A stretch of 57,413 bases of DNA, the filler included, from Sphacelaria rigidula (lineage: Eukaryota), in the NCBI GenBank assembly GCA_964200075.2. It is 8 parts of 8 records of this genome, joined end to end, with 100 filler letters (N's around TTAATTAATTAA, not from the genome) between each part and the next. Parts side by side here need not be neighbours in the genome. Positions count along the whole stretch, not along the records: positions 7,192 to 14,281 come from CAXNAA020016536.1; 7 more parts are not named here. One strand, written 5' to 3'. The position numbers and the translations under genes were made by a program. Position 1 is the stretch's first letter; each line of letters begins with the position of its first letter. This document shows positions 144-35,400 of this stretch, piece after piece. The notes beneath the pieces are model-generated. The model saw nothing but the letters and a program-made list of their open reading frames with translations, was not told where the DNA came from and made no database searches.

Positions 144-1037
144 AGTATACAATAGTGCGGAGGCCGGAACGTGACTGTCTAGAATCCACAAATGTATATC
201 TCGCGCGCCCCTCTGCGTTGTCCCTCTGACACTACTGACTCTTTCAAATAGTGGACTCTCGAGGAGGACCTGGTAGTCTGGGGGATCGTATTCAACTTAT
301 GGCCGTACACGAACGACCGGACACTCCTGAGGTCCAGGATCCGCCGCAGATAGCACGTGCTTTTTCTCGTCGAATCTAGATGATATCATGAAACGAGAAA
401 CGAGGTGTTCACAGAACGGATTCCATTGCCACCTTACAGCATTTCGAGTGTTTTGGCTTGGCTGGAAAGCATGCTGTAGACTCTCGTGCTCCAGCGGTTC
501 GACCTCTGACCCTCCAACCATCTCTAGGGCGAACACTGTAGCGACATCAGGAACAGAGCGCGCCGCCTACAGCGAGAACAAGACAGGTAGCATCAAGCTC
601 TCCAGAGCTGATAATGAGTCAAATACGAGGATGTCAACACACGGTAGAGCGCTGCATCACATGCAAAGAAGAAATGTTTCCACAAGACTTGTTATCGCGG
701 ATGCCGTGGAGAAGGTGCCGAGCGCATCGCACGATTAAACCGGTAGTCTCCCCGCCACCGTACCACATGCCGGGTGAGATTCAGGTTACCAAGGCTCGAC
801 ACACGACTCGTTCTCTCTGCTACTCTTCGTTGACGGCTTGGGTCTTTTCCTCTCCGGAGCATCGGCACCATCGCCGACTACAGGGTGAGGGTGATTCCCA
901 CCGCGGGAATACTCTGGAAAGATGGAGGCTACAGTCGAGGTCTCGCAGCTTTTATCATGAGCAACAATGCAGGCGAGATTCCACCCCAATTACAAGCACA
1001 GTAGCTCAAACTTGCTCGATTAACGATCAAGTAGCAG

Positions 1038-1870
1038 GTGTGTTTCGCCGCATTCACCAGTATAGTAGCACATGTTGCTGACGTAGCGATGGTCAGTTTT
1101 TTGCACCTGCGCTGACGTAGCCCCAGAGCACGTGATGGAAGAAGCCGGGACAACTCGAACGTTGGGTCACGTACAGGACTCGAACGCCGGAAAGGTAGAC
1201 AAATCCCTACCACACGTGCGTGATGTGAGAACAGTGGTCGGCGGTAAAGACGGTGTGTGGGGACGTCAGTCCCTGTTGGTGTGCGGTGCGTGGGCTGTCG
1301 TTGGCCGTCATGCCGGGTTTGTCTCCTCCGCAACATATATATCCAAGCGAGTGAGGCGTGTGTTTCCCCTCCATTACGTGTCCGGTAGAACACTTTTCTC
1401 GATTGGCGATCCAATAGTTTGTGTTTTCCCTCCAGCACAAGTACACCAGCACATGTTGCTCGATTGAAGGTTAAATAGTGTGTGTGTGTTTCGCCACAAT
1501 AATTATGATGGGACAGTAGCACATGGTGCTCACGTCGCGAAGCCAGTTGATCGCACCTGTGCTGACGTGGCTGCAGAGCACATGGTGGACTGATGCTGGA
1601 CAACTCGAAGGTGAGGCCGCGTACAGCACTCGAACGCCGAAAACGTAGGCATGTCCCCACCGTACGTGCGCGACGCGAGAGCGGTCGCCGGCTGTAAAGA
1701 CGGTGTGTGGGGACGTCAATCGGTGTCGGTGTCCCGTTCGTAAGCTGTCGTTGGCCGTGATGCCCGCGTTTGTTGCCGTCGCTAGACACAAATCCAAACG
1801 AGGGGAGGGTGTGTGTTTCTCCTCCATCACGTGTACAGTAGCACCCTTTTGTCAATAGTCGATCCAATAG
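1038..1870. repeat. Tandem repeat of about 450 bp (about two diverged units)
   Basis: AAGACGGTGTGTGGGGACGTC and GCTGTCGTTGGCCGT recur 450 nt apart (1251 and 1701). Same family as 6088-6920. Confidence 0.9.
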
Positions 1871-2404
1871 TAGGCATGTTCCGCCCTTATTACGTGCAGA
1901 GGATCACGTATTCCGGAACTATTACGGTGGCGTATGTTTTTCAAAGTAAATTCACAGGAAAAGACGACTGCTCAATTTGGTCCTTCTCGAAAAAAAATCC
2001 ACAGCAGCTGTTTTGTAGAATGAACAAAAAGTTCGAAGCCGCTCATAGATACTCATCATACCAACACAAAGGGCTGATACGTCACTTGAGCACATCAAAT
2101 GAAATCTAAAGAGCGCAGCTTTCGTCAGGTGCCGGCCCTATATGCAGAATGCAAACACAAGTTGCAGTACCGCACGTCGAAAACGAGCACTTCAAAACAA
2201 CACATCGTTGCGGGGGTAATAATTTTCATGATCCTAGTTTTGAGCATGAAGCAGTAGAACCAGTTACAACAGACAGCTCTGAACCAGACGGTTCGAATGA
2301 TTCATTCGAATTTTGAATCTGCGCGCGCAATCTCGAAATATTAACTTTTGAACTGGGGCACCTCGGGTAAACATGCACCTGGTGCACTCCACCGACTGCG
2401 CAGC

Positions 2405-5548: not shown

Positions 5549-6087
5549 TTCGAAGGCGATGTGCCTATGATGTAACGAAGGTCGACAATATGGCCGCTGT
5601 GCTGTAATTTTTTGCTGTCCATTGGACTCGGGTGCTCAGTCCAGTCGACAACATGTTTAGCGTTCGTTTGTTATATTCCGAACACAATTGGTGACTTTAT
5701 AATGGATCATTCGTTCGAATTTTCACCACGGGCTATCCCACGGGTGAGGCACAAAATCATGAATATTAAGGCATAACTGATCACATTTTCTCTTTTTTCT
5801 CATGACACGTGCATTGTTACAATTCTTTGAGGCAATCTTTACTTATCTTTCAATCACAATACGATTGACAGTGTTTTGCTGCTTCGATTTTTTACCGCAA
5901 TCCATTCCACGGGTAATGTCCAAGGTCATGTATATGCAGGCATGACTCGTCACTGGAGAGAATGTCCTTTTTTTCTTCCTGCGAGTCAACCTTTAAAATA
6001 CGGTTCGTTAAAGCTATAGAACGTTCCACTAGCTCAACAAATGGAAAACTGGTGTCCAACTTTCACCAACCATAAGCCCCCGTGATG

Positions 6088-6920
6088 GCGATCGGATGGT
6101 GTGTGTGTTTCGGCCCCACCTCGTATACAGCAGCAGATGGTGCTCACGTCGCAAACGCCAGATTTTCGCGCCTGTGCTGTCGTGACCACAGAGCATGTGG
6201 TGGACTGCTGCGGGGCAACTCGAACTTAAGACAGCGTGCCGCACTCCAATGCCGATATTGCCAGCAAAACCCCCACCACACGTGCGTGACGTAAGAGCGG
6301 TTGCCGGCGAGTTAAGACGGTGTGTGGGGACGTCAATCGGTGTCAGTGTACCGCGCATGAGCTGTCGTTGGCCGTGATGCCCTGGTTTGTTGCCGTCGCT
6401 AGACACAAATCTAAGCGAGGAAAGTGTGTGTGTTTCTCCTCCACGACGTGTACAGTAGCACCTGTTAGTCAACTGTCGATCCAATAGTGCGTGTGTCTCG
6501 CGCTCATTACGTGCAGAGTAGCACGTGTTGTCGAACGAGCGATCGGATGGTGTGTGTGTTTCGGCCCCACCTCGTATACAGCAGCAGGTGGTGCTCACGT
6601 CGCAAACGCCAGATTTTCGCGCCTGTGCTGTCGTGACCACAGAGCATGTGGTGGGCTGCTGCGGGGCAACTCGAACTTGAGACAGCGTGCCGCACTCGAA
6701 CGCCGATATTGCCAGCAAAACCCCCACCACACGTGCGTGACGTAAGAGCGGTTGCCGGCGGGTTAAGACGATGTGTGGGGACGTCGATCGGTGTCGGTGT
6801 GCCGCGCGTGAGCTGTCGTTGGCCGTGATGCCCTGGTTTGTTGCCGTCGCTAGACACAAATCCAAACGAGGAAAGTGTGTGTGTTTCTCCTCCACGACGT
6901 GTACAGTAGCACCCGTTATC
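6088..6920. repeat. Tandem repeat of about 451 bp (about two near-identical units)
   Basis: GCGATCGGATGGTGTGTGTGTTTCGGCCCCACCTCGTATACAGC at about 6088 and 6539. The units align throughout. Confidence 0.93.
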
Positions 6921-7091
6921 AATTGTCGTGTTCCGAACCGTGTCGATTTTGTTTTGTGAATGTAGATAAAATATATCAAACTGTAACGCTTTCACAGATT
7001 TCTCCAGTTCCTCTTGTCATCGTGACGACCTCTGAGTAGCCGGGAGGACGCGTATCAAAGGAAGGAAATGTAGCAATGATCCCATTTGCCT

Positions 7092-7191
7092 NNNNNNNNN
7101 NNNNNNNNNNNNNNNNNNNNNNNNNNNNNNNNNNNTTAATTAATTAANNNNNNNNNNNNNNNNNNNNNNNNNNNNNNNNNNNNNNNNNNNN
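7092..7191. other. Artificial contig linker (44 N + TTAATTAATTAA + 44 N). Identical linkers at 14282-14381, 21472-21571, 28661-28760, 35850-35949, 43038-43137, 50226-50325
   Basis: Seven identical 100-nt spacers with stops in all six frames. The segments between them never increase in length (7091 down to 7088 nt). Confidence 0.98.
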
Positions 7192-8310
7192 GGGCGGGGT
7201 CTTCACGGCATACTTCGCCGAAAATCACACCGGAGATGAAATGAAGCCCATAAAATGCCATGATATGACATCGCGGAAGGTCACGTGAATGATACGTTTT
7301 GTTCGTGAAGGAGAATGCATACCTCTCGCAATCTAGCGCCATTTTGTTTTGCTATTTCCAGGGAGTAACATATAGGAGGAGCCGGCACAAGTGGCCGTAT
7401 CCATTTCAAAACGCACCATCTCCGCAGAAAGAACACTTGCCCTGAACACTCAATACCCTCATGGTATGGACACTGTATCCTTTGCTGCGGCGGGAAGTTC
7501 AGGGCGCAAAACCGTTCGATGAAATGCCGAGTGCTCACATCAAAACGCACGATGCGCCGGCGTCGGTCGATACTCAACAAATCGCGCCACTTTCTATAAC
7601 AAAGGAGACCAATACGACATTACAACCGTTGACCCCTCCACCGCCGGCGCGGCGGGCACATCTGGAATGTCGAGCGCATAATGTGAACGACAACCCGTCC
7701 TTCCATGAGACCACAGTACATCCTACAGTGTACATGGTCTCCGTCCACCCGCGACACCACCCGTGGCAGTCTCAGAGTCTGGTTGCGCCGCTTTTCGTGC
7801 ACCTGAGGCGAAATGTAGCGTGCACGCCAAGAAATAGACGCAGAGAGGGTCAGCGAGCCACAGTCGTGTTCCTTTTCAGCCCGACGGAGAGGGAGGGGGG
7901 GGCAATCGTCACGATAGCACCGGAAAAGGGGCGGCGTCGCCGCGCAACATGACTCATAGACATCAATCGGCGGTTGCATGCTCGCGCAACTCCCACGAGG
8001 TATGCTTTCCTCAAACTAACTCATCGACAGCCACATTCCAATACCATCTACGGCAGCCACAGTGTGCTCCCCTCATGTTACAACCTCACAGATTGCAACA
8101 TTTGACCAACTGCAACAGTTCAATTGCTGCAACCCACCGCAGCCCCATCCATCCAACATAACACCAAACAGGAGAAGAAATCTCCGGGATTGCGGGCGAT
8201 GCACGGGCCTGTGCATCACAATAAACGAGGGGGGACCGGGGCGTATGACTAGCGACGCGAACCTCCTTAGCCGAAGGTCTTGGTATCATACCTGTGCGTT
8301 GACCACTCTC

Positions 8311-11009
8311 TCACACATCGTTCATCCGGTCCAGGTACCATTCCAGTATGTCCTCGGCCGTGTCTCCGTGCAGACCACATGACTCCTCCGATGATGTGCT
8401 GCTACGGCACTCGCAGTCGTCATCCGAGCTCGTCTCTGCTTCGTCGTTGCTATCACCCCCGGGATCCACCTCATTCGCCATCACCACCTCCAACCCTTTG
8501 CCAACCGGTACGCTTTGCGCGTCGACAGCAGGATCGCACCGCCCTCTGCACCCGCACAGTATGGGATGGCAATTCTTCCCAAGCTTCGCGCATTTACAGT
8601 TGCCGTTGCACTGGTGTTTCTCCGCCGCCGATGGGTTACACCCGCACAGAAGACGATTGATCCTCCCCGTGGGGTCGATACGCGCATGTTCCGATAAGTT
8701 GACGACAATATTGGCCTTCGTCATAGGCGTCTGTGCGTCTGGAGACGTCGTACTCCAACCGCGATTGTTGAACTTCACGTCCGCCATCGACTCCTCCATG
8801 CCCGCCATCCAATATTCCAATACGGCTCCTGCTCGCTGCGCTTGGAAGCGAAGCGCATCCGCGGGCGGCACGAGGTCTGTTGGCCTCCTGCCGCCCAACT
8901 TCCACCTCAAAAACCTTACCCAATTCACGAACAGCGTCACTTTCCCCCCCGCCAGGTCGCGGAGGATGTACTCCACGCTGGTGCCGGCCGTGGAGAATGC
9001 CGATTCCTTCTTGTAAAAGAAAGCGACCCCCAGAAACTTCACCACTTCGTCCTCGTCTACATACACCACCCGGCCCTCAAACGTGACCAGGGGCCTCGAG
9101 AGAAGACCCGGTACGCGCAGGGCTTTCAGGAGCGCCTTCCACATAGAGAGGAAAGGTAGCCCGTGGAAACAAGGTAGAAAATCACAGCCGCTCAGCAAGT
9201 ACACCAGCACGAAGAGGGCGACCCTCGTGTGGGGGGAGTCCTTCACCCACGCCGCGGTCCCTTCCCACGCATCGCAAGGGCCGTCTTGGAGTCCAGTTAT
9301 CGCTTCGTACACGCGGTTCACGTTCACGTATTCGACACCGTTCGACAACCGCCGCCGTACGGTTACGTCGGTGCGGTCCGGGCCCGCGGCAGCTATTTTC
9401 TTCGTCGCCATAGCCAGCAACACGATCATGATTTCATCCGTGTCGACAGAAGTAAGCGTCCACGTTCTCATCGCCTTGCCGTCAGGATGCGCGTATTTGG
9501 CGTGATTGATCATGAAGTGCACTGCAGCGAGCTCCCCCTCCCCGATCTGCGGCCCGAGTGCATGATGGACAGCCCCCGGGTCACCAGCACCGGGATGCCA
9601 ATGAAGCAGGCTTGTAGACACCCCGCTTCGGGCATCGGCGGCCCCTGCCGTCACAGCGGTATCATCCTCTCCACAGACGCCGAGAGGCGGTTGACTCAGC
9701 AAAGCCCGCGGCGGTGGTGAGAAAAAACCGCCGCCGGGTGCAGCGCTCGCCTCCGAAGCCACCGCCTGTACCTTGCTTGCGACATGCCACACAGACGGCG
9801 GGGGCTCATTCACCGACACTGGCACCAGTGCCGGGCGGTGGTGCACATATGGTGGTGTCCACGCCACTGCCGCAGTCGGTGCGACCACCGGCGCCGCGGT
9901 TGCGCCGTGTGGGGCGGCATGCCGTGGCGGTGCGCCCCGGCAAGCGATGTGCATGCCAGCGTTCGCGAGAAATGCAGTACTGCCATGTTGAAGCAGAAGA
10001 GCGGGGGAAATCATCGCTGCTCCCCCCGCGGCATTGTCAGTCCGCGACAGGTCCCCACAGACGCCGAGAGGCGGTTGAGTCAGCAAAGCCGACGGCGGTG
10101 GTGAGAAAACCCCGCCGCCGGGTGCAGCGCTCGCCTCCACACCCACCGCCTGTACCTTGCTTCCGGCATGCCACACAGTCGGCGGGGGCTGATTCACCGA
10201 CACTGCCGCCAGTGCCGGGCGGTCGTGCAGATATGGCGCTGTACACCCGACTGGCGCAGTCGGTGGTACCGCCGGCGCGGCGGTCGCGCCGTGTGGGACG
10301 GGACCCGGTGGCGGCGCGCCCCGGCAGGCGCTCTGCATGCCAGCATTCGCGACAGGCCGTCGCTGTCTTAACCCTATCTGGCCACGTCCACTCGCCGGCG
10401 GAGTAATGTTCTCACCCCCATGTCCCGATGCTGAAGTTGCGTTCGGCTCCGTCACCGCCGCCTCCGCCGGCTGCCGATCTAGGTTGTCCACAATTGGAGT
10501 GGCCGACCGGTCCATGACATCGACGCCGTAAAATACCACGGCCTTTCCTGTTTGGCGCTGTAGTTCCGCATGACCGAGGGTGCGCTCACAAATCGCCCGA
10601 GCCATAGCGTCTCGGTTCCCGGGTACACGCAAGTATGCCTGATATTCCGAACCGCCTGGTAGTCGATCAGTTCGACTCAAGTCGAACACCTGGTCGCAGT
10701 TGGTCCTCTTCGCTTGCCGCACTGCTTGCTCGTGTGCCTTGATCGGCGGTACGAGGTCAGCCCGATCATAACAAACGACCACGAGCCTCGTCCGGCCTGC
10801 GCACTTCGCCATGATGTTCACGCGGTGATACTCGACCACAGCCGCGTCGCCCCCGGCAAGGACGGCGGGTGGCGGACTCTTGTGGATCTCGCAAGGAAGA
10901 TCGATGGCGTGTCCTTCCGTCGAATAGAATTCCTCCTCTCTTATCGCATCTGGGCACGTGCTGGTCATGAACGTTTTCGGGCCCTGTGATTTGTTGGCAT
11001 GGCGCGCAC
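8311..11009 (-). CDS. Academ-like protein, last exon: XPG/FEN1-like (PIN + H3TH) nuclease and C-terminal Cys-rich (CXC/Cys8) finger
   Basis: Contains HAIDLP, VVVCYDR, IKAHEQAVR, GEGE, SVDTDEIMIVLL, LLSGCDFLPCFHG, LVPPADALRFQAQRA...YW, NRGW and CGC...CNGNCKC...C...CGCRGRC, then an acidic tail. Acceptor TTCAG|GT. Confidence 0.87.
9590..10352. repeat. In-frame 384-bp (128-aa) tandem duplication, Pro/Ala-rich, inside the nuclease exon
   Basis: GCATGCCAGC(G/A)TTCGCGA at 9951 and 10335. The peptide ANAGMxxACRGAPP...QPPLGVCG occurs twice. Confidence 0.93.
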
Positions 11010-11433
11010 CTGAACAACAGGGTGGCAAGCGGGTACATCGCGTCGGCACTTTTGTGTGCGAAGGGCTGCAGACAGGATTCATGATATTTTACAGGAGCGG
11101 GTTCCGCCCGACAGCGAATAAGAGAGTGCATCGGCACCTCCTGCGAGTACCGACATCTATTTACTCCGGTGGACCACATACAACGCACAAACAACGTGGC
11201 AGGGGGGGGGGGGGGGGTCGCCCGCTGATAAACACATCCTGTGACATGAGGGTTTAGGGGCACATCACATTCAAACCGAAAACGGTACTGTGTCCACACT
11301 TTCGGCGATGGTGCCCAATGACACAATATAATCCGCCGCGCAACATCACACAATATAATGGGCTGTTCACTGTTCATTTGCCGTCGTACCGAGGACTTTC
11401 TTCATTTCGATGTCATGTGTACACTCGACTCAC

Positions 11434-12856
11434 CTCCGTCTTCGATGGCCATGGCCTGAGGCACCACTGTCCCGATCTGCAGAACAGCTCTGAAGAGCTC
11501 CTGTGGCGTCACGAGGTGACCACGACTAATCAGCGACAGGAGGATGTTGTGCTGTTCCAATGCTTGGGCGCTAAAGCTGCTAACACTCTTCTTCAACGCC
11601 GATGATCTTCCTTCCTGCTTCGTGGGCTTCTTGCTTGTGCGCGCGGGGGGAATGCACTTAAGTTTTGTCCTAGACGCGCCGTCCGCTGTTTTGTCCCCCA
11701 ACACTACACCCTTTATCACACCTGCCCACATTTCGTCGCAACGGCGAGGCACGTCCAGGATCTTCGTCTCTTCCTTTTCCGTCATGACACGACCGTCTAG
11801 CGCCACAAGGTGGTCCCGGCCGTCGACACCAAACGCCCGGGAGTGCGGAAGGACTCGCATTGCTTCACGCACGGCCGGGTGCCTTTTTTTTTGCACTTCA
11901 ACCGCAGGGTCGCCCTGCTTCACTCCGGGGAAGAAGGCTTCCGCGATTTTCGCCGTGGCTCTCTCTCGTGCGCCAACAATAGCGGCTAGCTTTGAGACGA
12001 AGCTCCTGGTGATTTTCTTCGTCGCCCCCTTGTAGCCCCGATTGGCAATCTCTTGCCGCTCGTCCAACGCCACGCGAGAGAAGGCATCGCCGCCCAGTGA
12101 TGTTGAAAATTGTTTGCACATGACGCCGTAGTCCGCGTCCGTCATCCGTGTTGCATCCCCGAGATGCCCGGCGATGGATGTCTGGTAGTGATCCTTGCCG
12201 GACTCGCAGAAAATGGGTGCTGCGACGCGGAGGCAGGCGTTGCGGAGCTTGAGATTTCCGGTGCGCACGCCCATCCTCACCCCTGAGTAGGCGGGGTAGT
12301 CGACGACAAGGAATCGCGACCAAAACCTGAAAGTCTTGTGATCGCGCGACCGGCGCTCGATCCACTGCCGCACCTGCTCGGCGCCATCTGTGCCTTCCTT
12401 CAAAGCAGACCCCATCTCGTCTCGCATTATCGTCGTGATCACGATAATGAAGGACTCGTACAGCACCGTGATCTGGTGGTGGGCACGTCGATAGCTTGTG
12501 CCTTCTGCGGCGTTGGCGTCATCGCTGCCGATCTCTTTCGCAACGAACTCCAGGCCGGCGCCCCAAATACGTTTCAGCATAGCCTTGGCAAGATGGAACA
12601 TAATGTGGAAATCGCCGGGCCAGAGGAGGAGTTTCTCCGCGAACTCGGGGTACATGCGCGAATATTTGCGGACCCAACTGAAGGTCTCGTCGTCCCCGGC
12701 GAGGATGGCCCTCGGTCGTCCATCGCTGTCGCCCATGCGCAACATGTCGCAGATCCGACGAAGAGCGCTTTCCATCGCGTTGTAGTCTTTCGTGGACCCC
12801 TCCTGGATGAACATGTGCACAGTCTTCTGCGGCACGCGCTTCTCAGGTTTGAGTAC
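11434..12856 (-). CDS. Academ-like protein, transposase core exon (DUF6589-like)
   Basis: Contains ILAGDDETF, WPGDFHIMFHL, GTSYRRAH, TFRFWSRFL, VRTGNLKLRNACL, SGKDHY and FSRVALDERQEIANR. Acceptor GCGCAG| and donor G|GTGAGT, phase 1. Confidence 0.85.
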
Positions 12857-13500
12857 CTGCGCACGATTGCATGGCGGGGTGTGCACCGGGGGGTCCGCGA
12901 TTGGAAAGTGGAGAAATCGACCAGACGGTTATGTCCGGCCAAGCTTAGCAGTTACATTCTCAAGCATGTGCACCGAGACATGTGCACATGCGGTATACAT
13001 TTCCATGTACATATTTCCTCTGTGCCATAGGTGAAGATCCTGACGATTACACAGACCCTGAACGGTGTCCGACACCGCAGGCGAGTTTTTCATTTATTAT
13101 TCGGTGTCTTTTTTAATTGGAACCCATATATGTATACATTTTCAGGCACCAACATGCACGTTTGCTTCCCAACGCAGTCGTAATCGCCCATCGGCGCGGA
13201 CATAATCTGGAAAAGCGGCCAAAATTTCCAGGACCCAATCCACTGTCTCTCCGTGGGCCCGCCTCTTTGCTACTTTTGCATACATTGCGTGTGTTACCGC
13301 TCTACTTGTATCCCTCAGCCGTACAGTCGTTCCGACTCATATCTTTTGCCCGCCCCCCACACGAACAGTGGAATGGCATCGATCTTCCATCAAATGGACG
13401 CCATCATATTTTGTTTTAGCCACGCTGTCAGTAACCCTCTACGTGAACCCGCCGAACCCAACATTTTTTTTTCACCACATGCGCGCGGGAGTCGGCATAC

Positions 13501-14281
13501 CTGCCGGAGCTGTGCCTCCACGCATGTTTCCTTCCCCTCTCGAAACAGAACCGCGCTCCTGCATGCGCTGACGAAGAGGTCCGTCACGTATGTATCGAAA
13601 ACCCGGCGGGTATCGTCACGGGGCAGCCCGTCCCTGACCACCTCCATTGTTAACTTCGAGAGCGGTGTCCACTCCGAGTACGGAGACAGTTGCAAATTCC
13701 TTTCAGATGATTCGTCATCCTCAGGCACCACGCATGTTGCAGCGATGCAAGAGACGTAATCCGTTTTGATAAGGTTCATCGCCGCCTTCATGTCGCAGTT
13801 GTCGATAGCCACAGCCGGTGTCCCCTGCGCTAAGGGAATAACGTGGTGATCCCGCCTCTCGTGGACAACAATCTCTTCTCGCTTGGTACGTTGGCTGTCC
13901 GTCAAACAAAGACCAAGACCCGCCAGGAAATCGTTCACTCTCCTCGTAGCACCCAACGATTTCAGGGCCTGAGCGAGCATGAGCTCGTGGGGAGCCCTGT
14001 ATGCTCGTTGCAGCACAGCTTTGATCAACATGGTCGCGAAGAAATACAGGAGAATATGTTTTTTCTTCGCATCATTACATCCCCCCACATCACCGTCGGG
14101 ACTCGCTACGCTTTCGCGCTGCCCGCACGCGCTCGGAATCGGAGCGTCTTCATCGCCATTGTCGAACCCCGTGTCAGAACGCAAAACACCCCGGAGGAAG
14201 AGACGCAGCGTGGCAGGCAACCCCGCTACATATTCAAGCACGGGGGCCAGGTCCCCCTTGATATCGTCTCGGCGGGTGCTC
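13501..14281 (-). CDS. Academ-like protein, first visible exon (N-terminal transposase part)
   Basis: Open to the contig edge. Contains LAQALKSLGATRRVNDFLAGLGLCLT and AVAIDNCD (candidate first catalytic D). Ends at the donor CAG|GTATGC, phase 0. Confidence 0.8.
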
Positions 14282-14597
14282 NNNNNNNNNNNNNNNNNNN
14301 NNNNNNNNNNNNNNNNNNNNNNNNNTTAATTAATTAANNNNNNNNNNNNNNNNNNNNNNNNNNNNNNNNNNNNNNNNNNNNGGAGAAGGGAACGGGCCCC
14401 CTCCCCAAAGGGGGGGGTTGACAATGGTTAAACCCTTTAAGGCAACACCCCAAAAGGACCCCCCCCCCCCCCCCCCGCGCGCGTTGAATTCACAGTTAGT
14501 TCACGAGGTGTTTTCGCGATGCGGGTGGGACGGTGTGTGTGTGCGACTGTGTGGATTTAACCCTCGTACGTTTTTACCATTCTATTGCCGTGTCTCA

Positions 14598-14770
14598 CCC
14601 GTATTCTGCAAGGGGGGGGGGGGTATACCCATGATATTGCATGCCGTAGTCACCTGACCGTTGACCTCGTATTCTGCAAAGGGGGGAGGGGGGGGTTGTA
14701 CTTATGATCTTGCATGCCGTAGTCATATGACCATTGGCCTCGTATTCTGCAGGGGGGGGGGGGGGGGGGG
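14598..14770 (-). repeat. Tandem copies of only the ~70-nt 3' tail of repeat family A, separated by G runs
   Basis: A unit Gn-TATACCCATGATATTGCATGCCGTAGTCA..GACC.TTG.CCTCGTATTCTGCA occurs twice between G runs. Confidence 0.8.
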
Positions 14771-19572: not shown

Positions 19573-21742
19573 TGTTATTTCTTTTTGTGCATTTTTTTTG
19601 TTTTTGTTTTTGTCGGCGTACAAAGTGCGTATCTCTTGTTCTGTGCCTGTGTTTCTGTTCAGAAAAACGTTCATGGGCGTAGCAGGTTTGGCGTCAGAAG
19701 CTGAGCTTCTGTGCGGCGGTGTGTGTGTGTTTGTGCGTGTGTGCAGAATGTGAGGTGTGTGAAATGCTCACCATACCAGTATAAAGACAAGCTAGCTGAA
19801 CATGACTTCTGGTAAAGGGTTCACGCGCACGCTGCCGTGTGTGTGTGTGCAGAGGAGGAGCAGGAGGATCGTTCGATTTTTTGGGGTCCCCGACGAACGA
19901 GAAAATAATTTTTGAAATGGGAGCTAAGCGGCTTAGATTTTGCCGGGTAGAGTGCATGATGTCAATACTGGAGCAAGTACGAGTACAGTAGCTCAAAGCA
20001 CATGCACGTTGGGACAGCAAGAATGACGGTATGTTCGGAGATCAGCCAAGCAAAACTCAAGTTCTGGGAGACTGAATATGACGAAATCTACAAAGAAAAA
20101 CATCTCGGGGGGCAGCTTAGGGCGCTCAACATGTGGTTGATATTTGCCTGTACACTTGAGAAATGCAACTGACGGTGTGGGTGATGGTGAGGGGTACGTA
20201 ATGCGTAGTGTGCTGTGTGGTCGTAACTGAATGGAAGGATTTTTACGTTACAATATGCGTCTTCAGCTGTCAGTTGCTTCCGTGAGTTGACATGTGCTAT
20301 TTTGGATAGGGGGCAGAGGTGCGGAAACCCTTGGATTATATTCTCATCACCGCGTCGTGGGCAAAAACCAGAAAACACACGGGTATGGGAACTTTTGAGC
20401 ATTATTGGAGGAAGACTCGAGCCGTCATTATTCTCGTGTGTCTGTCGTGATTCTTCAATGACTCCAAACGCTTTCATGGTTACTACTCGCGCTGCGACAT
20501 GGCCAGCTTCGTTCTTGACTGTGGTGGTGGACGGGAGCGCGCGGGGGGGTCACACGTGACTCAGCATTCGTCCATACGTGTTTCGCTGCTTTTGAGGAAT
20601 CAAGCAAAGCAATCAAAGCGATACGGTTGGCATCGTGTGGCAACCCACAAATCGCGTCATTCTCGATGGAGAGATGATGGGGGTATGTTTTCCCCAGAGT
20701 GATGCCGCGATAACTCCCCCGCCCCGTGAACCACCCCCAGGATACTCACGAAAAAATTGACCTCACAGCGCATGATAGCTGCTTCCAGTCTGCACGAAGC
20801 GAAAATCTTCCAATGGACCAATACAATTCAAGGAGAGTCTCGATTTCAGCACTCTGCCCAAGGCGGGTTTCTTTGGAGTAGCTCTTTTGCTGACAGTCTT
20901 TACATCGTTGTACACCCACGCTCATTGACTAACCTTCCACGCGGAGCGGTTGTGCACACAGCATCATTCAACACCGTGTTTACCTGATCTACCTTCGCCA
21001 TGTCGATTTGGTTTCCTCTCGTACCGACGCATTTGTAGGGCGCAGACAACTACTAAAAGACATTTGATACTCCGCGATATCTCGATCCAAACTCTGGCGT
21101 CCATTGCCACAGTAGACAACGCCTTATCCGCCGACATACACACTGATCCATGCAAATCCACAAGAAAAACGCTTAGGCATCTGGAGGTCCTCACGGCTCC
21201 TACATGAGTGGATGCTTGCACATGGCATTGACGTACAACCCACGGGCGCACAAGCATCAGGACATGGATTCGTATTGGTTCATCACCTAACCAGCGGGCA
21301 TGTTGAACTGTAGGTTTCCCCATACGGAGGGCCGCTGTGGGTCTGCGGTTCCAATTGCAATTTTCAAATTGGTTGTTGTCTCAGGCTATTCCAGATTCGG
21401 CTAACGATTTCTGTGACAGAAAACACTCTAGATTTTTTCGGAATACTCTTCAGAAAATGTAGCGTTCAGTANNNNNNNNNNNNNNNNNNNNNNNNNNNNN
21501 NNNNNNNNNNNNNNNTTAATTAATTAANNNNNNNNNNNNNNNNNNNNNNNNNNNNNNNNNNNNNNNNNNNNGCGTGGCAGCGTCCTGGCCGTGTTTGTCA
21601 GCCACCTCTTCCAGCTGAACGTGAATTGCACATGGGTGGCCCTTCAGCGCTTCCACATGTGGCGACGGGATTTCCACTTGCTGCGCCATATCATTGTCGT
21701 CGTATAGTGTGGCTTCCTACGCTCGCGAAGTGTTGTTAATGT

Positions 21743-25835: not shown

Positions 25836-27289
25836 ACTGACGGATTTCACTTCGTTCTGCAACGCAAATTTGTACAAAAAGCTTTCGCTGTCGGATAGCA
25901 CAGAGAGTTGAAGTAGTTGATGTTGAATGCGAGCGAGCTGATGAGAACAATGCACTCTGTGTAGTCTGCTGTGGACACCATGAGGGTTAGATTGCAATAG
26001 GTTAACGACGTCACCACCTCTATGTGTGATTCTACACCTCCCGTACATGTGGTGCAGTTGCGTCAACCAAGTTATTTCAAGGGGTGTTGATGATAAGCTA
26101 CTCTTCTCGTCTTGGCTGTGCTGCGCATCCCAGGGTCATAAGACAAATACGCGCGTCATGAACAATTGGGAATCAGCGATTGTAGTGAACAACTGCGAGA
26201 CGCGATTTGTGTATGAACGTGATGGAAAGTTTGGGATGACTGGTTTCCGGTGAAGGCCTGTCTATCTGACGACCCAGCGCATACTGCCACAGCACACGGC
26301 ACCATAGCGCCCAATCCGTTTCGTCTCATCGAGTCTACTCTCGTCCATTTTGATCCTTCATGGGGATTGCGTCGGACGAAAATACCCATCTGCTGTCAAT
26401 GCTGCTAGAGGCTGCTTTGAGCGAGGTGTCCCTATTACCCTTGCTTCATTCAAACGGAGTGGATATGAGAATCACACTATCGCAACTTTCATGTACTCGT
26501 AGTTGTAATCGATAGTCAAAGAGCAATATTGTTGGGTAAAATGGCGACATGCAGCTGGCTTACCTCCGAGGTGGTTGAACCGTTCGTTGACCATGGCAAC
26601 GTGAAGAGAAGACGAAAAAGATCGAAGGTAAAAGTGTCACACACACGGCCATACACTGCTCCTTGTAGCAGTCACTGGACATTGGGGCGACCGACGGGAA
26701 GCATGAGACATTCATCACAATGCATGGACGAATTGCGCGATACTTAGTGATGGATAATAGCCGTGACATGAATATAGATTAGGTGAATGTCTGCTACGTG
26801 CTACATATGTACTGAGTATATATGTCCTCTGTGCTACAAGTAAAGTCGGTTATGGGGTGCATATCTCATCCTCCGAACAGAGGTGCCTACGATCCTACGA
26901 TGCCCTTGTATACTTTTCTTCGAAAATATCAAGTTTTATGCAGAGGCTCACGGTAAAGAGATGAAGCGGAATCACAGTTTTCGAGTGTAATCAGGACGAA
27001 ATTGCCCATATTTTGGGGATATGGGGGGAGGGGATATCTCTGGGAAAAGTATTTGAGCATTTGTTGTACAATTGTTTCAGACAAGTCTGTTTTTTTTTTG
27101 TCGACATTCAATCGCCCACTACCGACCACAACCACACTGGGCTCTCCCGTGCACACACCCTCACGTAGCAAACGGTGCGCTCAAGTATCATTGGGCCACC
27201 GTACGCCGTGGCGGTGCAGGATAGCGCTGGCCTTTCCGCCAGGCCACTCAACGGTGCCGAAGGGTATTCTACGTCCGCTCACCGATTGC

Positions 27290-27724
27290 TACGGTGCTGG
27301 TCGAAAAAACTATGGGAAAAGTGCAAAGTTCAGATACAGTAGACGACAACGGGGGGTTCGACCTCTCAAACAAACGGCGGAGTGGGCGGCCGTCGCCTCT
27401 TACTCCAACAAAGACCTCGGCATGCGACGGGCAACAAGCAGGAGCGACCATTTACGCTCAGGCGAGTCTCGAATGAATCAGCTGGAAGATCGGGCTCGAA
27501 TACAGCTCAGGGACTGCGAGGCGGTGTTTCAAGAAAGAAAAACGGAAAGGTGTCTTGGCGCATCAAGCCGGCCTGACACAAACCCTCTCCGAGGCTCAGA
27601 AGAAGCGTCGGGTCGGTTTTGTCTGTGATCAGGGATTCCCAAACGACACGTACGGTAACTCCCTTGACCGAGGAAACGTCATGTATCTGAACGAAAGTTC
27701 TTTTTGTTTCGAGGGAAAACATAT
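27290..27724 (+). pseudogene. Highly degraded Tc1/mariner transposase fragment, possibly resuming at about 28110-28550 after an insertion
   Basis: KRRSGRPSPLTP, LSEAQKKRRVGFV and VMYLNESSF (degenerate first-D motif). Downstream PEHQVLYGYFF weakly resembles the PDLNVLDLGFF motif of DD39D mariners. Confidence 0.6.
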
Positions 27725-28110: not shown

Positions 28111-30351
28111 TTGAGGGGAGAAAGTAGAAGAACGAGAAAAAAATGATCTAGGTCTATGTGAAACAAATAAATAGTAAATATCTCCACAATAGTGAAATAG
28201 TATCATAAGTGGCCGGCACCTGAAGTAGGGCTTCAGAAGCAGACGAGCAAAAGAAATGGCCATGCGCGCATAGAAAAACCTTGTGCACCCATACACAGTA
28301 AACAACGCAAAATGCCGTGAAAGCAGACTGCGGCTCAGCTACTGTGAAACTTTCTATGATAGCCCCCCCCCCCAAAAGTGCATGGTTTTGGGAGGCAAAA
28401 TCTTCGCCGAAATCGAAATGGGAAAAGCCGAGCACAATGAGCAGCTGGGAATAATTCCCACGCTTGAGTTCGTTCTCGCCAATGTTGCCAATATGAGGCA
28501 CTTCCTCCAGCCTGAACATCAGGTGCTGTATGGCTATTTTTTTCGTGACACTTTTGGACTGGTTTGCGGGGGGGGGGACTATCAACAGTGATTTCGTGAG
28601 ATTGAGAGTAGATGATACGATTGAGAGTGAAAAGCGGTCAATCAGTGAATGAATCGTTACNNNNNNNNNNNNNNNNNNNNNNNNNNNNNNNNNNNNNNNN
28701 NNNNTTAATTAATTAANNNNNNNNNNNNNNNNNNNNNNNNNNNNNNNNNNNNNNNNNNNNGACCGCTCACATTAAGGAGCTTAAAGTCTCATCAAATGAG
28801 TGAGCGATTCGAAAATCATCAATCTGAAATGTGCAGTAGCATAGAATCTCGTCGAGGAGAGGAGGATACAAACAAGCCAAGGCTGGCAGCACGCGTGGGG
28901 ATAAGGTGAGTGGCCTGCAAAAAACTGTCCAGAAATTTGACTGAACCGGTTACTAAACGACCCATTCGCCGGTATGGACAATGAATAGGGCACAATAAAA
29001 AGAGTTATGCTTGGACCCGAATACTTTCTTTAATGAGTTTTTTTGGTATCCGTAAAATGCCCTTAAATAATGGAAAGAATATATATATATGTATATATTT
29101 GAGTCCATGCATAATTTTTTTCATTATGCCCTATTGATTGTACATATCAAGTATTACCGTACTGGGCGCCTGAACCATTTATTTTGTAATTTCTTCGTAA
29201 TTGGCAATTTCCCTGGGCTCTGTAGCTTGCTACCGCTGTTCATATGGGGGATCTGAGGATACTTGTACACGCTCCACATTTCAATATTAAGTGACCTACG
29301 GGCTGACCGGTCATCGGGGGTCCTGACATGTTTCAGCCCAGATTCTGACTTTTCGATACTTCCGGTCGATCGAGCCTGCCCTGATCGTATCTGTGAAGAA
29401 ATATACAGGTTTTTGTTTTTGAAACTCTACCTATTCATAGCACTAAAGCCGAAGAACTGTGTTTCATGGTCAATAACACCCTCCTGGTAAACGGGGTATC
29501 TACTCGTATCGCCCGATAACACCAACCAACACTAAGTTAAGCACCGGGGGGAAGATCTGTTTGTTTTACCAAAATCTACCGACGCTAGCATTTTCGAATT
29601 ATATCGAAGAGTAATCGCCAGAAAAACCCTTCTGAAGAAAAACATTTCACGTCCAGTACTATAAATTGTGAATGGGCCTGCAAACTCCAAACCCGCTTCT
29701 AGGCTGGCCCAGCTCGTACCACGAGTACCAACACCATATTCGTGAGATTTAGAGCGTAATATCGGAGTCAGAGTGGATGCTCTAACGTTCCTCACAAGCA
29801 ACTTTTTTATTTTTGCTTGAGCACACGTCCTGCGCATGCAGCTACCGTACAGTACCCCATTCGAGGAATTCGGCGGTCTAGTTGGTGAGATACCGCATAG
29901 AGCATTTTTACGCCTGGGGTGGCATTTCGGAACTGAAACTGTTTCAGGCACTGATCGGTTTTTCCTGAAAGAGGGGATCTTTTGTTCCAATGGACTGACT
30001 ACGTCGTTGCGATCAAGTGATCAAATTGATCGTGTAGGTGACAGCTTTCATTGAAGCCACCGCTTCACCAGCTGGGCGCATTACTCCTCGTACTGTGGAG
30101 ATGTCAAAATCGACGGGAAAGTCAAGTTTTTCGGGTCTCACTCTGAATCCGATGTTACACTCTGAATCTCACGAATATAGTGTTTACTGTTGTCAGGTGC
30201 AGGTCCCATTTCTACCGTCATTTTGTTCGTCGTAATGTGAGTATCTTTATCCTAAACTCAAAACACTCAAATTGGTATAAACATAGCCGGTAACGGCAAA
30301 CTTCGAATATACTGCGGATAAAATGGAGTCCTCATCACCAGTTCCAGTTAA

Positions 30352-34554: not shown

Positions 34555-35400
34555 TTAACCCTTAGACCGCGAGAGTAGTCTTTCTGGATTATGCATACTT
34601 TTTTTCACTTGAAATTGATGCCGATTCAACAGAAGACTAACCTCGCGGTCTAAGGGTTAACCCTCAGAGAGCGAGGGTAGTCCATCTCGATCACGCATAA
34701 TTTTTTCGAGTGAAACTGATGCCGATTCAACAGATGACCTACTCTCGTCGTTCAAGGTCGCGGTGCGGGTGTTGTGTTTGTTGTCGTCTCATCTATCCTG
34801 GATGCCAGTCTACACCTTTGGGTATATGTGGGCGAACCGGCCGGGGTCACACAGGAGAAAGGTCAACACAGGGGTTTTTCTTTTCTGTTTCTTTTCAGTA
34901 CTCTACCTTCCTTCTGCGGTGCTTGCCTTCATTTTTTATCGCGAGAGGAGTACCGCAGTCCCTTTCCCTCGTCGACCGTTGAGTCGAAATTTGTGTACCC
35001 ACGACATAGTCTCTCTCCACTGTTGGGCATGGTGTGAGAAAAAGTCCCAGATCGCTCCGAGATTTGAAACACGACCCGACCGCCAGAACGTTTCGAGGTT
35101 ACCAACCAAGCCGGCGGGGCAACCGGCCCCTGTGGCGGGTAGTCCATATGGATCACACATTATATTTTCAAGTAAAATTGATGCCGATTCAGCAGGTGAC
35201 CTATACCCTCGCGGTCAAGGGGTTAACTCTTTGATGGCGAGAGTAGGTCTTCTGTACCCGCATCGCCGTCTAAGGGTCAACACTCAGCCTGCGAAGAAGG
35301 TAGCCCATCTGGACCATGCATACTTTCTTCAAGTGAAATTGATGACGATTCAACAGATGACCTACTCTCACCGCGTCCAAGGGCTCTAAGGGCCAAGACT
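34555..35400. mobile_element. Second piggyBac-type MITE array (34555-34760 and 35133-35400), interrupted by a SINE-like insert
   Basis: TTAACCCTTAGACCGCGAG...CTCGCGGTCTAAGGGTTAACCCTCAG. The same core sequence resumes after 35133. Confidence 0.82.
34765..35130 (-). mobile_element. Putative tRNA-derived SINE (family B). Second copy on + at about 54610-54880
   Basis: About 250 nt shared with 54620-54880 (TCACACCATGCCCAACAG...GGTCGACGAGGGAA...CCTGTGTGACCCCGGC). The minus-strand head has a B-box-like GTTTCAAATC and the tail is CA-rich. Confidence 0.65.

What the first reader, a model, noticed from the sequence alone, without database searches (positions are those of the whole stretch)
8311..14281. 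Apparently intact AcademX-type transposon (transposase + XPG-like nuclease + Cys finger) in a probable brown alga
Seen: three minus-strand ORFs join via canonical splice sites into one stop-free frame of at least 1633 aa. It carries AIDNCD, LAGDDETF, PGDFH and DERQEIANR, then PIN/H3TH motifs (YDR, GEGE, DTDE, SGCDFLP) and a terminal Cys cluster. Established: this domain order defines helicase-less Academ (AcademX) elements, a poorly characterised superfamily reported from animals, a red alga and, as AcademH, fungi. Inference: this may be an undescribed, divergent stramenopile lineage. Unlike every other TE coding region in the window it has no stops or frameshifts, so it is either recent/active or domesticated.
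Basis: partly seen in the sequence, partly recalled or inferred. Interest (0 to 1): 0.82.

Follow-up and report, generated by a model that had tools for sequence, protein, structure and literature searches.

The report
Expressed Academ-type transposase gene, brown alga
A 7-kb unplaced contig of the brown alga Sphacelaria rigidula carries an expressed, spliced gene that fuses an Academ-type cut-and-paste transposase to a flap/5'-nuclease and a cysteine cluster, which puts a little-studied transposon superfamily into brown algae; whether this copy can still move is not shown.

Summary
Three minus-strand exons (14281-13501, 12856-11434, 11009-8311) give a stop-free 1633-codon frame. Contigs of two probable RNA runs join them exactly at the predicted GT..AG introns; two DNA runs do not.

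The gene is cut at its 5' end by a contig boundary. The window is a chain of eight unrelated ~7.09-kb contigs joined by N/TTAATTAATTAA linkers. No element ends, TIRs or TSDs can be read, so "intact transposon" is unproven.

An NCBI record (Sphacelaria rigidula, 1359 aa, "unnamed protein product", 7090-bp contig) is identical to exon 2 (from an internal Met) plus exon 3.

- **Academ membership:** five conserved landmarks of a published Academ RNase-H profile occur in order with matching spacing. Relatives hit Pfam DUF6589.
- **C-terminal module:** it folds confidently as a 5'-nuclease of the EXO1/FEN1/XPG/XRN superfamily (Z 15-16). A 295-residue disordered spacer splits it, and nine conserved cysteines follow.
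- **Copies:** six loci in S. rigidula, seven in Ectocarpus, two deep lineages.

Verdict: a new host lineage of a known transposon kind. Activity is unshown.

The parts
13501..14281 (-). Exon 1 (260 codons, open to the contig end). It holds the first catalytic-type motif AIDNCD (13792-13809; D160, N161, D163 of exon 1).
   Evidence: ORF; donor GT at 13500; RNA-type contigs X6 and X7 cover 14184-13498 and join to exon 2. BLASTP to S. rigidula paralogue P0008 gives E 7e-14 across the DNCD motif. It matches positions 3-6 'D N w D' of the published Academ HMM.
12857..13500 (-). Intron 1, 644 nt, GT..AG.
   Evidence: Splice sites. The joint 'skips 644, CT..AC (cut +3)' is seen in X6 and X7 and has depth 0 in DNA runs X1 and X2.
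11434..12856 (-). Exon 2 (transposase core). Motifs: LAGDDETF at 12680-12703 (second D), PGDFH at 12605-12619, PIF...YQ, and LDERQE at 12038-12064 (D265, E269 of exon 2).
   Evidence: Homologues. Conserved columns in alignment A3: the invariant and near-invariant columns include Y224, Q225, D265, E266, Q268, E269. Academ HMM positions 186-195, 219-224, 391-402 and 444-454 match.
11010..11433 (-). Intron 2, 424 nt, GT..AG, phase 1. It contains a segment (bin 11221-11457) with very high summed depth in the DNA runs only.
   Evidence: joint 'skips 424' in X6 and X7 only. The junction ...AIEDG|GARHANK agrees with homologues and with NCBI model P0163.
8311..11009 (-). Exon 3 (898 codons plus stop at 8311-8313): 5'-nuclease, spacer, Cys cluster, acidic tail.
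   Evidence: ORF. RNA-type contig X7:27 runs unspliced from 11006 to 9103. Identical to P0163.
10498..10995 (-). Nuclease N-region (exon-3 residues 5-170) with conserved D36 (AIDLP) and D81 (YDR).
   Evidence: pLDDT above 90. D36 kept in 19 of 22 and D81 in 28 of 31 aligned homologues. Aligned to EXO1/FEN1/XRN1 from chain residue 2.
9616..10500 (-). Disordered spacer (residues 170-464) between the N and I regions. It includes an in-frame 384-nt tandem duplication (9668-9967 and 10052-10351, 87% identical).
   Evidence: pLDDT below 50. Repeat. Most of the 150 listed homologues have their best stretch outside it (within residues 1-242 or 418-898). Differences between the two copies are spread 15/14/14 over codon positions, with 9 synonymous-only and 28 non-synonymous codons of 102. 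The spacer is retained in the transcript contig.
8773..9615 (-). Nuclease I-region plus helical part (residues 465-745) with conserved E490, E492 (GEGE), D522, D524 (DTD) and D609 (GCDFLP).
   Evidence: pLDDT above 90. Conservation: E490 27 of 31, E492 25 of 30, D522 33 of 37, D524 32 of 37, D609 34 of 41. Fold matches.
8536..8646 (-). Cys cluster, CxC-x9-C-x3-CxC-x6-C-x4-CxC-x3-C (C788 to C824).
   Evidence: Nine cysteines conserved in 12 of 15 up to 26 of 26 aligned homologues. No Pfam hit. One Atlas neighbour cluster carries PF03638 TCR in 14% of members, a lead only.
7192..8792 (-). 3' segment shared with many other copies: the last ~160 codons, the stop, and a 3' UTR with an intron at 8291-7803.
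   Evidence: Summed depth is 900-2300 in X2 against 76-350 over most of the gene body. Loose ends at 8792 appear in all 4 runs. The joint 7800|8290 (GT..AG on the minus strand) is seen in X7 at depth 824. Short S. rigidula gene models P0011, P0161 and P0162 on other contigs cover only this C-terminal part.

Best explanation
The contig holds one copy of a brown-algal member of the Academ superfamily of DNA transposons, of the helicase-less, nuclease-bearing (AcademX-like) architecture. One spliced mRNA encodes a polyprotein of at least 1633 residues.

Shown:
- The gene is transcribed and both introns are removed.
- The N-terminal half carries the DNxD ... GDxxTF ... GxFH ... YQ ... LDExxE series that characterises the published Academ RNase-H-like profile.
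- The C-terminal half folds as a two-part (N + I) metal-dependent 5'-nuclease. All seven acidic positions are conserved across relatives, and a disordered spacer splits the domain.
- A nine-Cys cluster follows.
- The family is multi-copy in at least two brown-algal genomes.

Inferred mechanism:
- The DDE domain nicks the element's 3' ends and carries out strand transfer.
- The fused structure-specific 5'-nuclease cuts or trims the complementary 5' strand, or the flap left at the ends. This is the job TnsA does beside TnsB in Tn7, and it would make excision a clean double-strand cut with a short staggered target cut.
- The Cys cluster binds DNA, probably the subterminal repeats.
- The many copies that share only the 3' 1.6 kb, and the deletion-type joints, are read as non-autonomous derivatives.

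Whether this copy is still mobile is open. I put that at about one in three.
For: Gene model and expression:
- spliced contigs in X6 and X7, introns absent only there, intron bins 12880-13353 at depth 0-0.65 against 24 in the exons.

Academ profile:
- I read 7 of about 20 parts of the HMM 'RNase_H_Academ' (465 positions, 44 sequences) in Supplementary File 1 of PMC5751038.
- Positions 3-6 'D N w D' correspond to AIDNCD.
- Positions 186-195 'vvltgDqply' correspond to AILAGDDETF. The upstream 's a a d' corresponds to STKD, 33 against 34 residues before the D.
- Positions 219-224 '[l/p]GfFHi' correspond to PGDFHI.
- Positions 391-402 'pilhatnhlkYq' correspond to PIFCESGKDHYQ, without a gap.
- Positions 444-454 'wayvhlDealE' correspond to FSRVALDERQE.
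- The HMM's most conserved states seen (D3, N4, H223, Y401, D450, E454) are all matched.

Other transposase evidence:
- Pfam DUF6589 is found in 5 of 7 relatives at E below 1e-4, and in 3 of 7 above the curated cut-off.
- Atlas neighbours of exon 2 are DUF6589 clusters from Arthropoda, Basidiomycota and Mucoromycota. PMC5751038 (passages read) reports fungal Academ as most abundant in Pucciniomycotina.

Nuclease:
- AF2 model with pLDDT above 90 over residues 5-170 and 465-790.
- VIA-align against 48,161 chains: all 17 chains with Z of 8 or more are 5'-nucleases (EXO1 15.3, XRN1 15.2, FEN1 13.0, XPG 12.7, GEN1 12.2, T5 exonuclease 12.2). The next chain scores 6.0.
- Second look: EXO1 16.3 (274 aligned, rmsd 3.6), FEN1 15.2, XRN2 15.3.
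- Seven acidic residues conserved.

Transposon-like population:
- Six S. rigidula loci: P0163, P0011, P0161, P0162, P0024, P0008.
- Seven Ectocarpus sp. loci: P0001, P0014, P0015, P0164, P0022, P0028, P0031.
- 243 representative clusters at E up to 1e-3.
- Two lineages, each with 100/99 support, both present in S. rigidula.
- Deletion-type joints 8563|11873 and 8772|12766 in DNA runs, and 7316|14155 in all four runs.

Architecture: a passage in PMC10045372 states that AcademX encodes a nuclease and makes 3-4 bp TSDs, while AcademH encodes a helicase.
Against: - The window's own protein gives no Pfam family at all, even at E up to 10. A profile of 71 nuclease homologues finds no nuclease among PDB sequences.
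- The match to the Academ HMM was made by eye on 7 parts of the file. No score or E-value was computed, and no Repbase Academ protein was compared.
- No TIRs, TSDs, empty sites or insertion polymorphisms could be examined. Both contig ends lie inside sequence that is repeated in the runs.
- The 5' end of the ORF is missing.
- Over most of the gene body the DNA runs show only a few variants. The spacer region is covered by one contig at depth 76 in X2, so full-length copies may be few or single.
- Expression and an intact frame fit a domesticated gene as well.
- The RNA contigs differ from the window at about 1% of positions (33 of 3212), so they may come from another allele or copy.
- The RNA label of X6 and X7 is the tool's guess.
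- The joints that suggest deletion derivatives have short sides (21-73 nt).
- A fused nuclease has no free N-terminus, which FEN1-type enzymes use at the active site.
Confidence: 0.7

Rival explanations
1. It is a domesticated host gene, or small gene family, derived from an Academ transposase-nuclease. It is kept for a cellular function such as DNA repair or programmed rearrangement and is no longer mobile.
For: - Long intact frame, canonical introns including one in the 3' UTR, and steady expression in two RNA-type runs.
- Conserved catalytic residues.
- Few variants over the gene body in the DNA runs.
- The Ectocarpus siliculosus relative is named 'expressed unknown protein' and lies on a 3.98-Mb contig.
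Against: - Many loci per genome: six in S. rigidula and seven in Ectocarpus sp. Many are fragments, and some have lost conserved cysteines, for example P0162 and P0161.
- Two deep lineages co-exist in one genome.
- Copies are only 35-44% identical between genera.
- The contig is an unplaced 7-kb piece whose ends are repeated.
- Deletion-type joints are seen.
- The spacer duplication evolves without codon-position bias.
Confidence: 0.17
2. It is a DDE transposase of the DUF6589 kind that is not truly Academ. It would belong to a separate or sister superfamily, and the resemblance to the Academ profile would be limited to motifs shared by many RNase-H-like transposases.
For: - No score against an Academ profile was computed.
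- Pfam names the family only as DUF6589.
- G-D and [C/D]xxH-type motifs occur in several superfamilies (recalled, from no call).
- The nuclease is not detectably XPG by sequence.
Against: - Five landmarks match in order, two of them gapless over 11-12 residues, including the profile's most conserved states.
- The same rare architecture, transposase plus 5'-nuclease, is stated for AcademX.
- Atlas neighbours have the animal and fungal range reported for Academ.
Confidence: 0.1
3. The contig is foreign to the alga: a contaminant, or a piece of an integrated giant virus.
For: - It is an unplaced short contig.
- One holder run is labelled 'algae metagenome'.
- The nearest viral folds are giant-virus XRN exonucleases.
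Against: - Relatives occur in three independently sequenced brown-algal genera, on contigs up to 3.98 Mb.
- Eight of the nine holder runs carry the one organism label, from two studies; the ninth holder (X1) is labelled algae metagenome.
- It has spliceosomal introns.
- The viral matches are at fold level only, 9-18% identity.
Confidence: 0.03

Closest known systems
AcademX lineage of the Academ DNA-transposon superfamily (Kapitonov & Jurka 2010; Kojima 2020). The primary papers are not held: searches failed. What I use comes from a passage in PMC10045372 and from recall.
   Same: - One long protein with an Academ-type DDE core followed by a 5'-nuclease and a Cys cluster.
- No helicase in the part present.
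- Multi-copy.
   Different: - The host is a brown alga. The hosts I recall for AcademX are animals and one red alga.
- The nuclease is too divergent for Pfam XPG models.
- A 295-residue disordered spacer with a recent 384-nt duplication splits the nuclease.
- TIRs and the 3-4 bp TSD could not be checked.
AcademH (the helicase-encoding Academ lineage of fungi and animals)
   Same: The transposase core family. DUF6589 neighbours include Basidiomycota and Mucoromycota clusters.
   Different: No helicase domain was detected and a nuclease is present instead. The 9-10 bp TSD stated for AcademH was not testable.
Rad2/XPG-family nucleases (EXO1, FEN1, XPG, GEN1)
   Same: - The fold: Z 12.2-16.3 with 228-277 residues aligned.
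- Seven conserved acidic residues.
- The N and I regions are separated by a spacer, as in XPG.
   Different: - 10-17% identity, and no Pfam or HMMER match.
- It is fused behind a transposase, so it has no free N-terminus.
- Extra C-terminal helices and a Cys cluster.
XRN1/XRN2 (Rat1) 5'-3' exoribonucleases
   Same: - Best Foldseek matches (E 1.5e-4).
- Z 14-15 with 350-365 residues aligned, reaching model residue ~785.
- An N-terminal G-P-K-x-[FW] stretch recalls the XRN start (recalled, not tested).
   Different: No sequence-level match. The XRN-specific domains are absent, and the context is a DNA transposon.
Tn7 TnsA/TnsB (a functional analogy only)
   Same: Two nucleases that would share the two strands at each transposon end. 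This is inference.
   Different: TnsA is a restriction-enzyme-like fold on a separate protein. There is no homology.

Membership tests
Academ superfamily (transposase) | RNase-H-like DDE core that fits the Academ profile | tested here: met
   Five landmarks of the published HMM RNase_H_Academ (PMC5751038, Supplementary File 1; parts 1, 6, 7, 8, 9, 16 and 18 read) are found in order with matching spacing. The comparison was by eye and no score was computed.
Academ superfamily (transposase) | Pfam DUF6589 (PF20231) on the protein. This is a proxy, not a formal definition. | tested here: inconclusive
   The window's exons and P0163 give 0 families. Relatives: 3 of 7 above the curated cut-off and 5 of 7 at E below 1e-4.
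Academ superfamily (element) | Terminal inverted repeats | not testable with these tools
   The contig (7192-14281) ends inside the gene at one side and inside repeated 3' sequence at the other. No second copy is in the window and no genome is held.
AcademX | 3-4 bp target-site duplications (stated in PMC10045372) | not testable with these tools
   No element boundary is available.
AcademX | Nuclease of the XPG/5'-nuclease type encoded with the transposase | tested here: met
   Same ORF and same mRNA. Fold Z 12.7-16.3 to XPG, FEN1 and EXO1, and all 17 chains with Z of 8 or more are 5'-nucleases.
AcademX | No helicase | tested here: inconclusive
   No helicase family in the 1633 residues present. 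The N-terminus and the rest of the element are missing.
AcademX | Placement inside the AcademX clade in a transposase tree | not tested
Rad2/XPG nuclease family | Sequence signature XPG_N / XPG_I | tested here: not met
   No Pfam hit for the window's protein or for 23 homologues. The profile against PDB sequences finds no nuclease.
Rad2/XPG nuclease family | Seven active-site carboxylates on an N + I split fold | tested here: met
   D36, D81, E490, E492, D522, D524 and D609 are conserved in 83-90% of the aligned homologues that cover each. The model aligns over residues 6-746 to EXO1 2-312. The residue-by-residue superposition was not inspected.
XRN 5'-3' exoribonucleases | XRN_N sequence family and XRN-specific domains | tested here: inconclusive
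   The fold match is as good as for EXO1 (Z 15.2-15.3; Foldseek E 1.5e-4), but there is no Pfam hit.
CXC / tesmin-TSO1 (TCR, PF03638) domain | Profile match to the Cys-rich motif | tested here: inconclusive
   Nine conserved Cys and no Pfam hit. One Atlas neighbour cluster carries TCR on 14% of members.

The most novel reading that the evidence does not exclude
Brown algae harbour a live, transcribed AcademX-like lineage. Its transposase works as a two-nuclease machine: the DDE domain handles the 3' strands, and a fused EXO1/XRN-like 5'-nuclease, held on a long disordered tether, cleaves the 5' strands. This copy, or a near-identical sibling, would still mobilise the abundant short derivatives that share its 3' 1.6 kb. 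It would be the first tractable model for the mechanism of the Academ superfamily and a potential native transposon tool for brown-algal genetics.
Probability: 0.25. Interest if true: 0.7.

Novelty: new member of a known kind. Interest (0 to 1): 0.45.

Why it matters
From recall, no Academ transposase has been studied biochemically, and why some lineages carry a nuclease and others a helicase is an open question. The TSD difference between the two lineages is noted in PMC10045372.

An expressed copy with all catalytic residues intact gives a concrete protein to test. Its confidently modelled nuclease domain makes that easier.

It also extends the known host range of the superfamily to brown algae. 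It gives a function to a set of 'unnamed protein product' gene models in the new brown-algal genomes. Annotators should mask or label these models as transposon genes.

Tried and rejected
- **Pfam on the three ORFs and on P0163:** 0 families.
- **PDB sequence searches:** with exon 3 alone, with profile A2 (nuclease) and with profile A3 (transposase). No meaningful hit; best E-values 0.16 and 0.36 to unrelated proteins.
- **Word-index homology search with exon 3 at near lengths:** none found. The cause is probably low-complexity words from the spacer.
- **Pfam on 23 nuclease homologues:** no XPG or XRN family.
- **tblastn and blastn of the contig against the rest of the window:** no second copy.
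- **Tandem Repeats Finder:** nothing on the contig. The 384-nt duplication came from the repeat finder.
- **TIR search:** the inverted repeats on the contig are short and 71-94% complementary, and none sits at plausible ends.
- **Rfam on the contig:** 0.
- **Whole genome and earlier findings:** not available.
- **Key papers not held:** Kojima 2020 and Yuan & Wessler 2011.
- **Supplement of PMC10799480:** no Academ or DUF6589 term.
- **Sequencing runs:** no listed holder is on record as RNA. X6 and X7 are RNA by the tool's guess and by the spliced contigs.
- **Synonymous versus non-synonymous differences of the RNA contig:** only 7 of its 33 differences were listed, 4 synonymous and 3 not. That is too few to use.
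- **Second structure prediction:** the D-D-E region with paralogue P0008 as first row of A4 was not accepted. The RNase-H fold of the transposase part was therefore not tested.
- **Viral fold library:** only fold-level XRN and FEN matches.
- **Pfam on four long ORFs of other contigs in the window:** 0 families.

Full report
**1. Where the finding lies**

The window is not one stretch of chromosome. N runs of 44 + 44 bases around the twelve-letter linker TTAATTAATTAA recur every ~7190 bases, at 7092-7191, 14282-14381, 21472-21571 and so on. So the window is a chain of eight unplaced contigs of about 7.09 kb each.

The finding occupies the contig 7192-14281. Nothing else in the window is its genomic neighbour. 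No other part of the window resembles it at protein or DNA level.

**2. The observation**

Three long minus-strand ORFs are present. In-frame canonical sites join them:
- GT at 13500 with AG ending at 12857 (intron 644 nt).
- GT at 11433 with AG ending at 11010 (intron 424 nt).

The product is 260 + 1373 = 1633 codons, ending at the stop 8313-8311.

Homologues cross both junctions. The S. rigidula paralogue P0008 aligns to exon 1 and exon 2. P0006, P0008 and P0010 align to exon 2 and exon 3.

Laying public runs on the contig gave direct support:
- In two runs that the tool guesses to be RNA (X6 and X7, one study), contigs of 3212 and 4014 nt read 14184-13498 | 12853-11431 | 11006-9103. They skip exactly 644 and 424 nt, with GT..AG ends on the minus strand.
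- The two DNA runs (X1, X2) show no such joints.
- The intron bins 12880-13353 have depth 0-0.65 in X6 and X7, against 24 in the exons.

The transcript contigs differ from the window at 33 of 3212 positions, so they may come from another allele or copy.

The frame runs open into the contig end at 14281, so the N-terminus is missing.

**3. Organism and existing annotation**

The best representative hit to the C-terminus (P0011, 92% identity) belongs to a 90% cluster of four Sphacelaria rigidula proteins. One of them, P0163 (1359 aa, 'unnamed protein product'), comes from a contig of 7090 bp. Its sequence is identical to exon 2 from an internal Met, plus exon 3 joined at ...AIEDG|GARHANK.

The contig is thus from S. 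rigidula, a brown alga of the Sphacelariales. The gene is already in NCBI without a name and without exon 1.

**4. The transposase half**

Pfam finds nothing in the window's own protein. Its relatives do hit PF20231 (DUF6589): 62% identity to an unnamed ENA protein, and 35-44% to proteins of Ectocarpus, Pylaiella and Sphacelaria. Three of 7 score above the curated cut-off and 5 of 7 have E below 1e-4.

The Atlas places exon 2 next to DUF6589 clusters from Arthropoda, Basidiomycota and Mucoromycota.

To test the Academ call itself I used the HMM 'RNase_H_Academ' (465 positions, 44 sequences). Muszewska et al. published it in Supplementary File 1 of PMC5751038. Their text (passages read) says it was built from the Yuan & Wessler alignment plus Repbase Academ entries, and that in 2017 no Pfam family matched Academ.

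I read parts 1, 6, 7, 8, 9, 16 and 18 of that file and compared the consensus with the window:

| HMM positions | HMM consensus | Window |
|---|---|---|
| 3-6 | D N w D | AIDNCD |
| 158-161 | s a a d | STKD (33 vs 34 residues before the second D) |
| 186-195 | v v l t g D q p l y | AILAGDDETF |
| 219-224 | [l/p] G f F H i | PGDFHI |
| 391-402 | p i l h a t n h l k Y q | PIFCESGKDHYQ (no gap) |
| 444-454 | w a y v h l D e a l E | FSRVALDERQE |

The most conserved states I saw (D3, N4, H223, Y401, D450, E454) are all matched. The matched residues are also the conserved columns among the brown-algal relatives.

This is a comparison by eye, not a score. It is nevertheless specific enough that I accept membership of the Academ superfamily at about 85%.

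The RNase-H fold of this half was not tested. A second structure job was not accepted.

**5. The nuclease half**

A full HMMER scan of 1.84 billion representatives with exon 3 found 243 proteins at E up to 1e-3, 112 at 1e-10 and 27 at 1e-30. The best stretches of most of the 150 listed lie within residues 1-242 or 418-898, outside the middle.

With 70 of them as alignment, AlphaFold2 gave pLDDT above 90 for residues 5-170 and 465-790, and below 50 for residues 170-464.

Fold comparisons:
- Foldseek ranks XRN1/Rat1 first (E 1.5e-4), with EXO1 and FEN1 at E 0.2-0.8.
- The Foldseek-independent search of 48,161 chains gives EXO1 Z 15.3 (273 aligned, rmsd 3.7), XRN1 15.2, FEN1 13.0, XPG 12.7, GEN1 12.2 and T5 exonuclease 12.2.
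- All 17 chains with Z of 8 or more are 5'-nucleases, and the next chain has Z 6.0.
- The second look gives EXO1 16.3, FEN1 15.2 and XRN2 15.3.

Seven acidic residues in the expected order are kept:
- D36 in 19 of 22 aligned homologues
- D81 in 28 of 31
- E490 in 27 of 31
- E492 in 25 of 30
- D522 in 33 of 37
- D524 in 32 of 37
- D609 in 34 of 41

By these tools it is no nearer to XPG than to EXO1, FEN1 or XRN, and no sequence model detects it.

**6. Spacer and Cys cluster**

Between the N and I regions lies a 295-residue disordered spacer, at the place where XPG has its own spacer. It contains a 384-nt (128-codon) tandem duplication, 87% identical.

The two copies differ equally at the three codon positions (15/14/14). 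Of 102 codons, 9 differ synonymously only and 28 non-synonymously. The sequence of the spacer is therefore under little constraint. It is nevertheless retained in the mRNA contig.

Downstream, nine cysteines (C788 to C824) are conserved. Pfam does not name the cluster. One Atlas neighbour cluster carries the TCR/CXC family on 14% of its members, which is a lead only.

**7. Transposon or host gene?**

For a transposon family:
- Six loci in S. rigidula: contigs of 7090, 8783, 9053, 6075, 11350 and 8520 bp.
- Seven loci in Ectocarpus sp. CCAP 1310/34.
- Many are fragments, and some have lost conserved cysteines.
- Of 20 representatives looked up, 8 carry an organism name, and all 8 are brown algae. 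The other 12 come from unnamed assemblies.
- A tree of 11 transposase cores has two clades, each with 100/99 support, and S. rigidula has a member in both.

In the runs:
- The last 1.6 kb of the contig (7192 to about 8792) covers the final ~160 codons and the 3' UTR. It has 5- to 25-fold higher summed depth than most of the gene body.
- Loose ends at 8792 appear in all four runs.
- That is where the short S. rigidula gene models P0011, P0161 and P0162 begin.
- Deletion-type joints occur at 8563|11873 and 8772|12766 in DNA runs, and at 7316|14155 in all four runs.

I read these as non-autonomous derivatives that keep the ends of the element. That would also mean the element is longer than the contig.

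These points are inferred. Depths of contigs are not copy numbers, and the joints have short sides.

Against a transposon: over the spacer only one contig (depth 76 in X2) is seen, so full-length copies may be very few. No TIR, TSD or insertion polymorphism could be examined.

**8. Mechanism**

Shown: the domain order, the conserved catalytic residues, expression and splicing.

Inferred:
- DDE-catalysed 3' nicking and strand transfer.
- 5'-strand cleavage or flap removal by the tethered nuclease, analogous in logic to TnsA/TnsB of Tn7.
- DNA binding by the Cys cluster.

A passage in PMC10045372 states that AcademX makes 3-4 bp TSDs and AcademH 9-10 bp TSDs. It says the difference seems related to the nuclease versus the helicase.

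**9. Novelty**

In the held library:
- AcademX/AcademH: 8 papers, 7 listed.
- Academ + Ectocarpus: 1 paper, on Fanzor, with no link between the two terms.
- Academ + algae: 23 papers. By their titles none is on brown-algal transposons. I read Academ passages in three of them (PMC5751038, PMC12973397, PMC3627910), and none reports Academ in brown algae.
- Academ + Phytophthora: 9 papers.
- Academ + stramenopiles: 2 papers.
- The large brown-algal genome preprint shows 0 occurrences of the word in the listing.

Repbase, Dfam and the Kojima 2020 paper could not be consulted, so existing entries cannot be excluded.

I rate this a new member of a known kind, in a new host lineage and with a divergent nuclease. 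It is of moderate interest, mainly as a candidate for mechanistic study of an uncharacterised superfamily and as an annotation fix for brown-algal genomes.

Noticed in passing
window 7092-7191, 14282-14381, 21472-21571, 28661-28760, 35850-35949, 43038-43137, 50226-50325: There are regular N44-TTAATTAATTAA-N44 linkers every ~7190 bases. The window is a size-sorted chain of unplaced contigs, so adjacency in the window carries no biological meaning.
   Followed up: yes
window 11221-11457 (inside intron 2): Summed depth is 27,209 (X2) and 46,398 (X1) in the DNA runs but only 31 and 4 in the RNA-type runs. Loose ends lie at 11322 and 11330. A very abundant short DNA repeat seems to sit in the intron. 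The only local feature seen is a 15-nt direct repeat at 11318-11332 and 11345-11359.
   Followed up: partly
window 7803-8291 (minus strand): A GT..AG intron of 489 nt starts 20 nt after the stop codon. It is spliced out in run X7 in a contig of depth 824 that is about 6.5% diverged from the window. Relatives of this gene therefore have a 3'-UTR intron and are far more abundant in RNA than this copy.
   Followed up: partly
window 7316 | 14155: A joint that skips 6838 bases is present in all four runs, DNA and RNA-type. Its sides are 28-30 nt and its ends are non-canonical (GC..TC). It could be a short internally deleted derivative that keeps both ends of the element, or a repeat artefact.
   Followed up: no
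window 929-1903, 6029-6991, 26957-27628, 34661-35389: The four longest ORFs on other contigs of the window (223-324 aa) give no Pfam family at E up to 0.01.
   Followed up: partly
window 14430-14480 and 14620-14700: Long G and C homopolymer runs lie at the start of the neighbouring contig, typical of low-quality contig ends.
   Followed up: no
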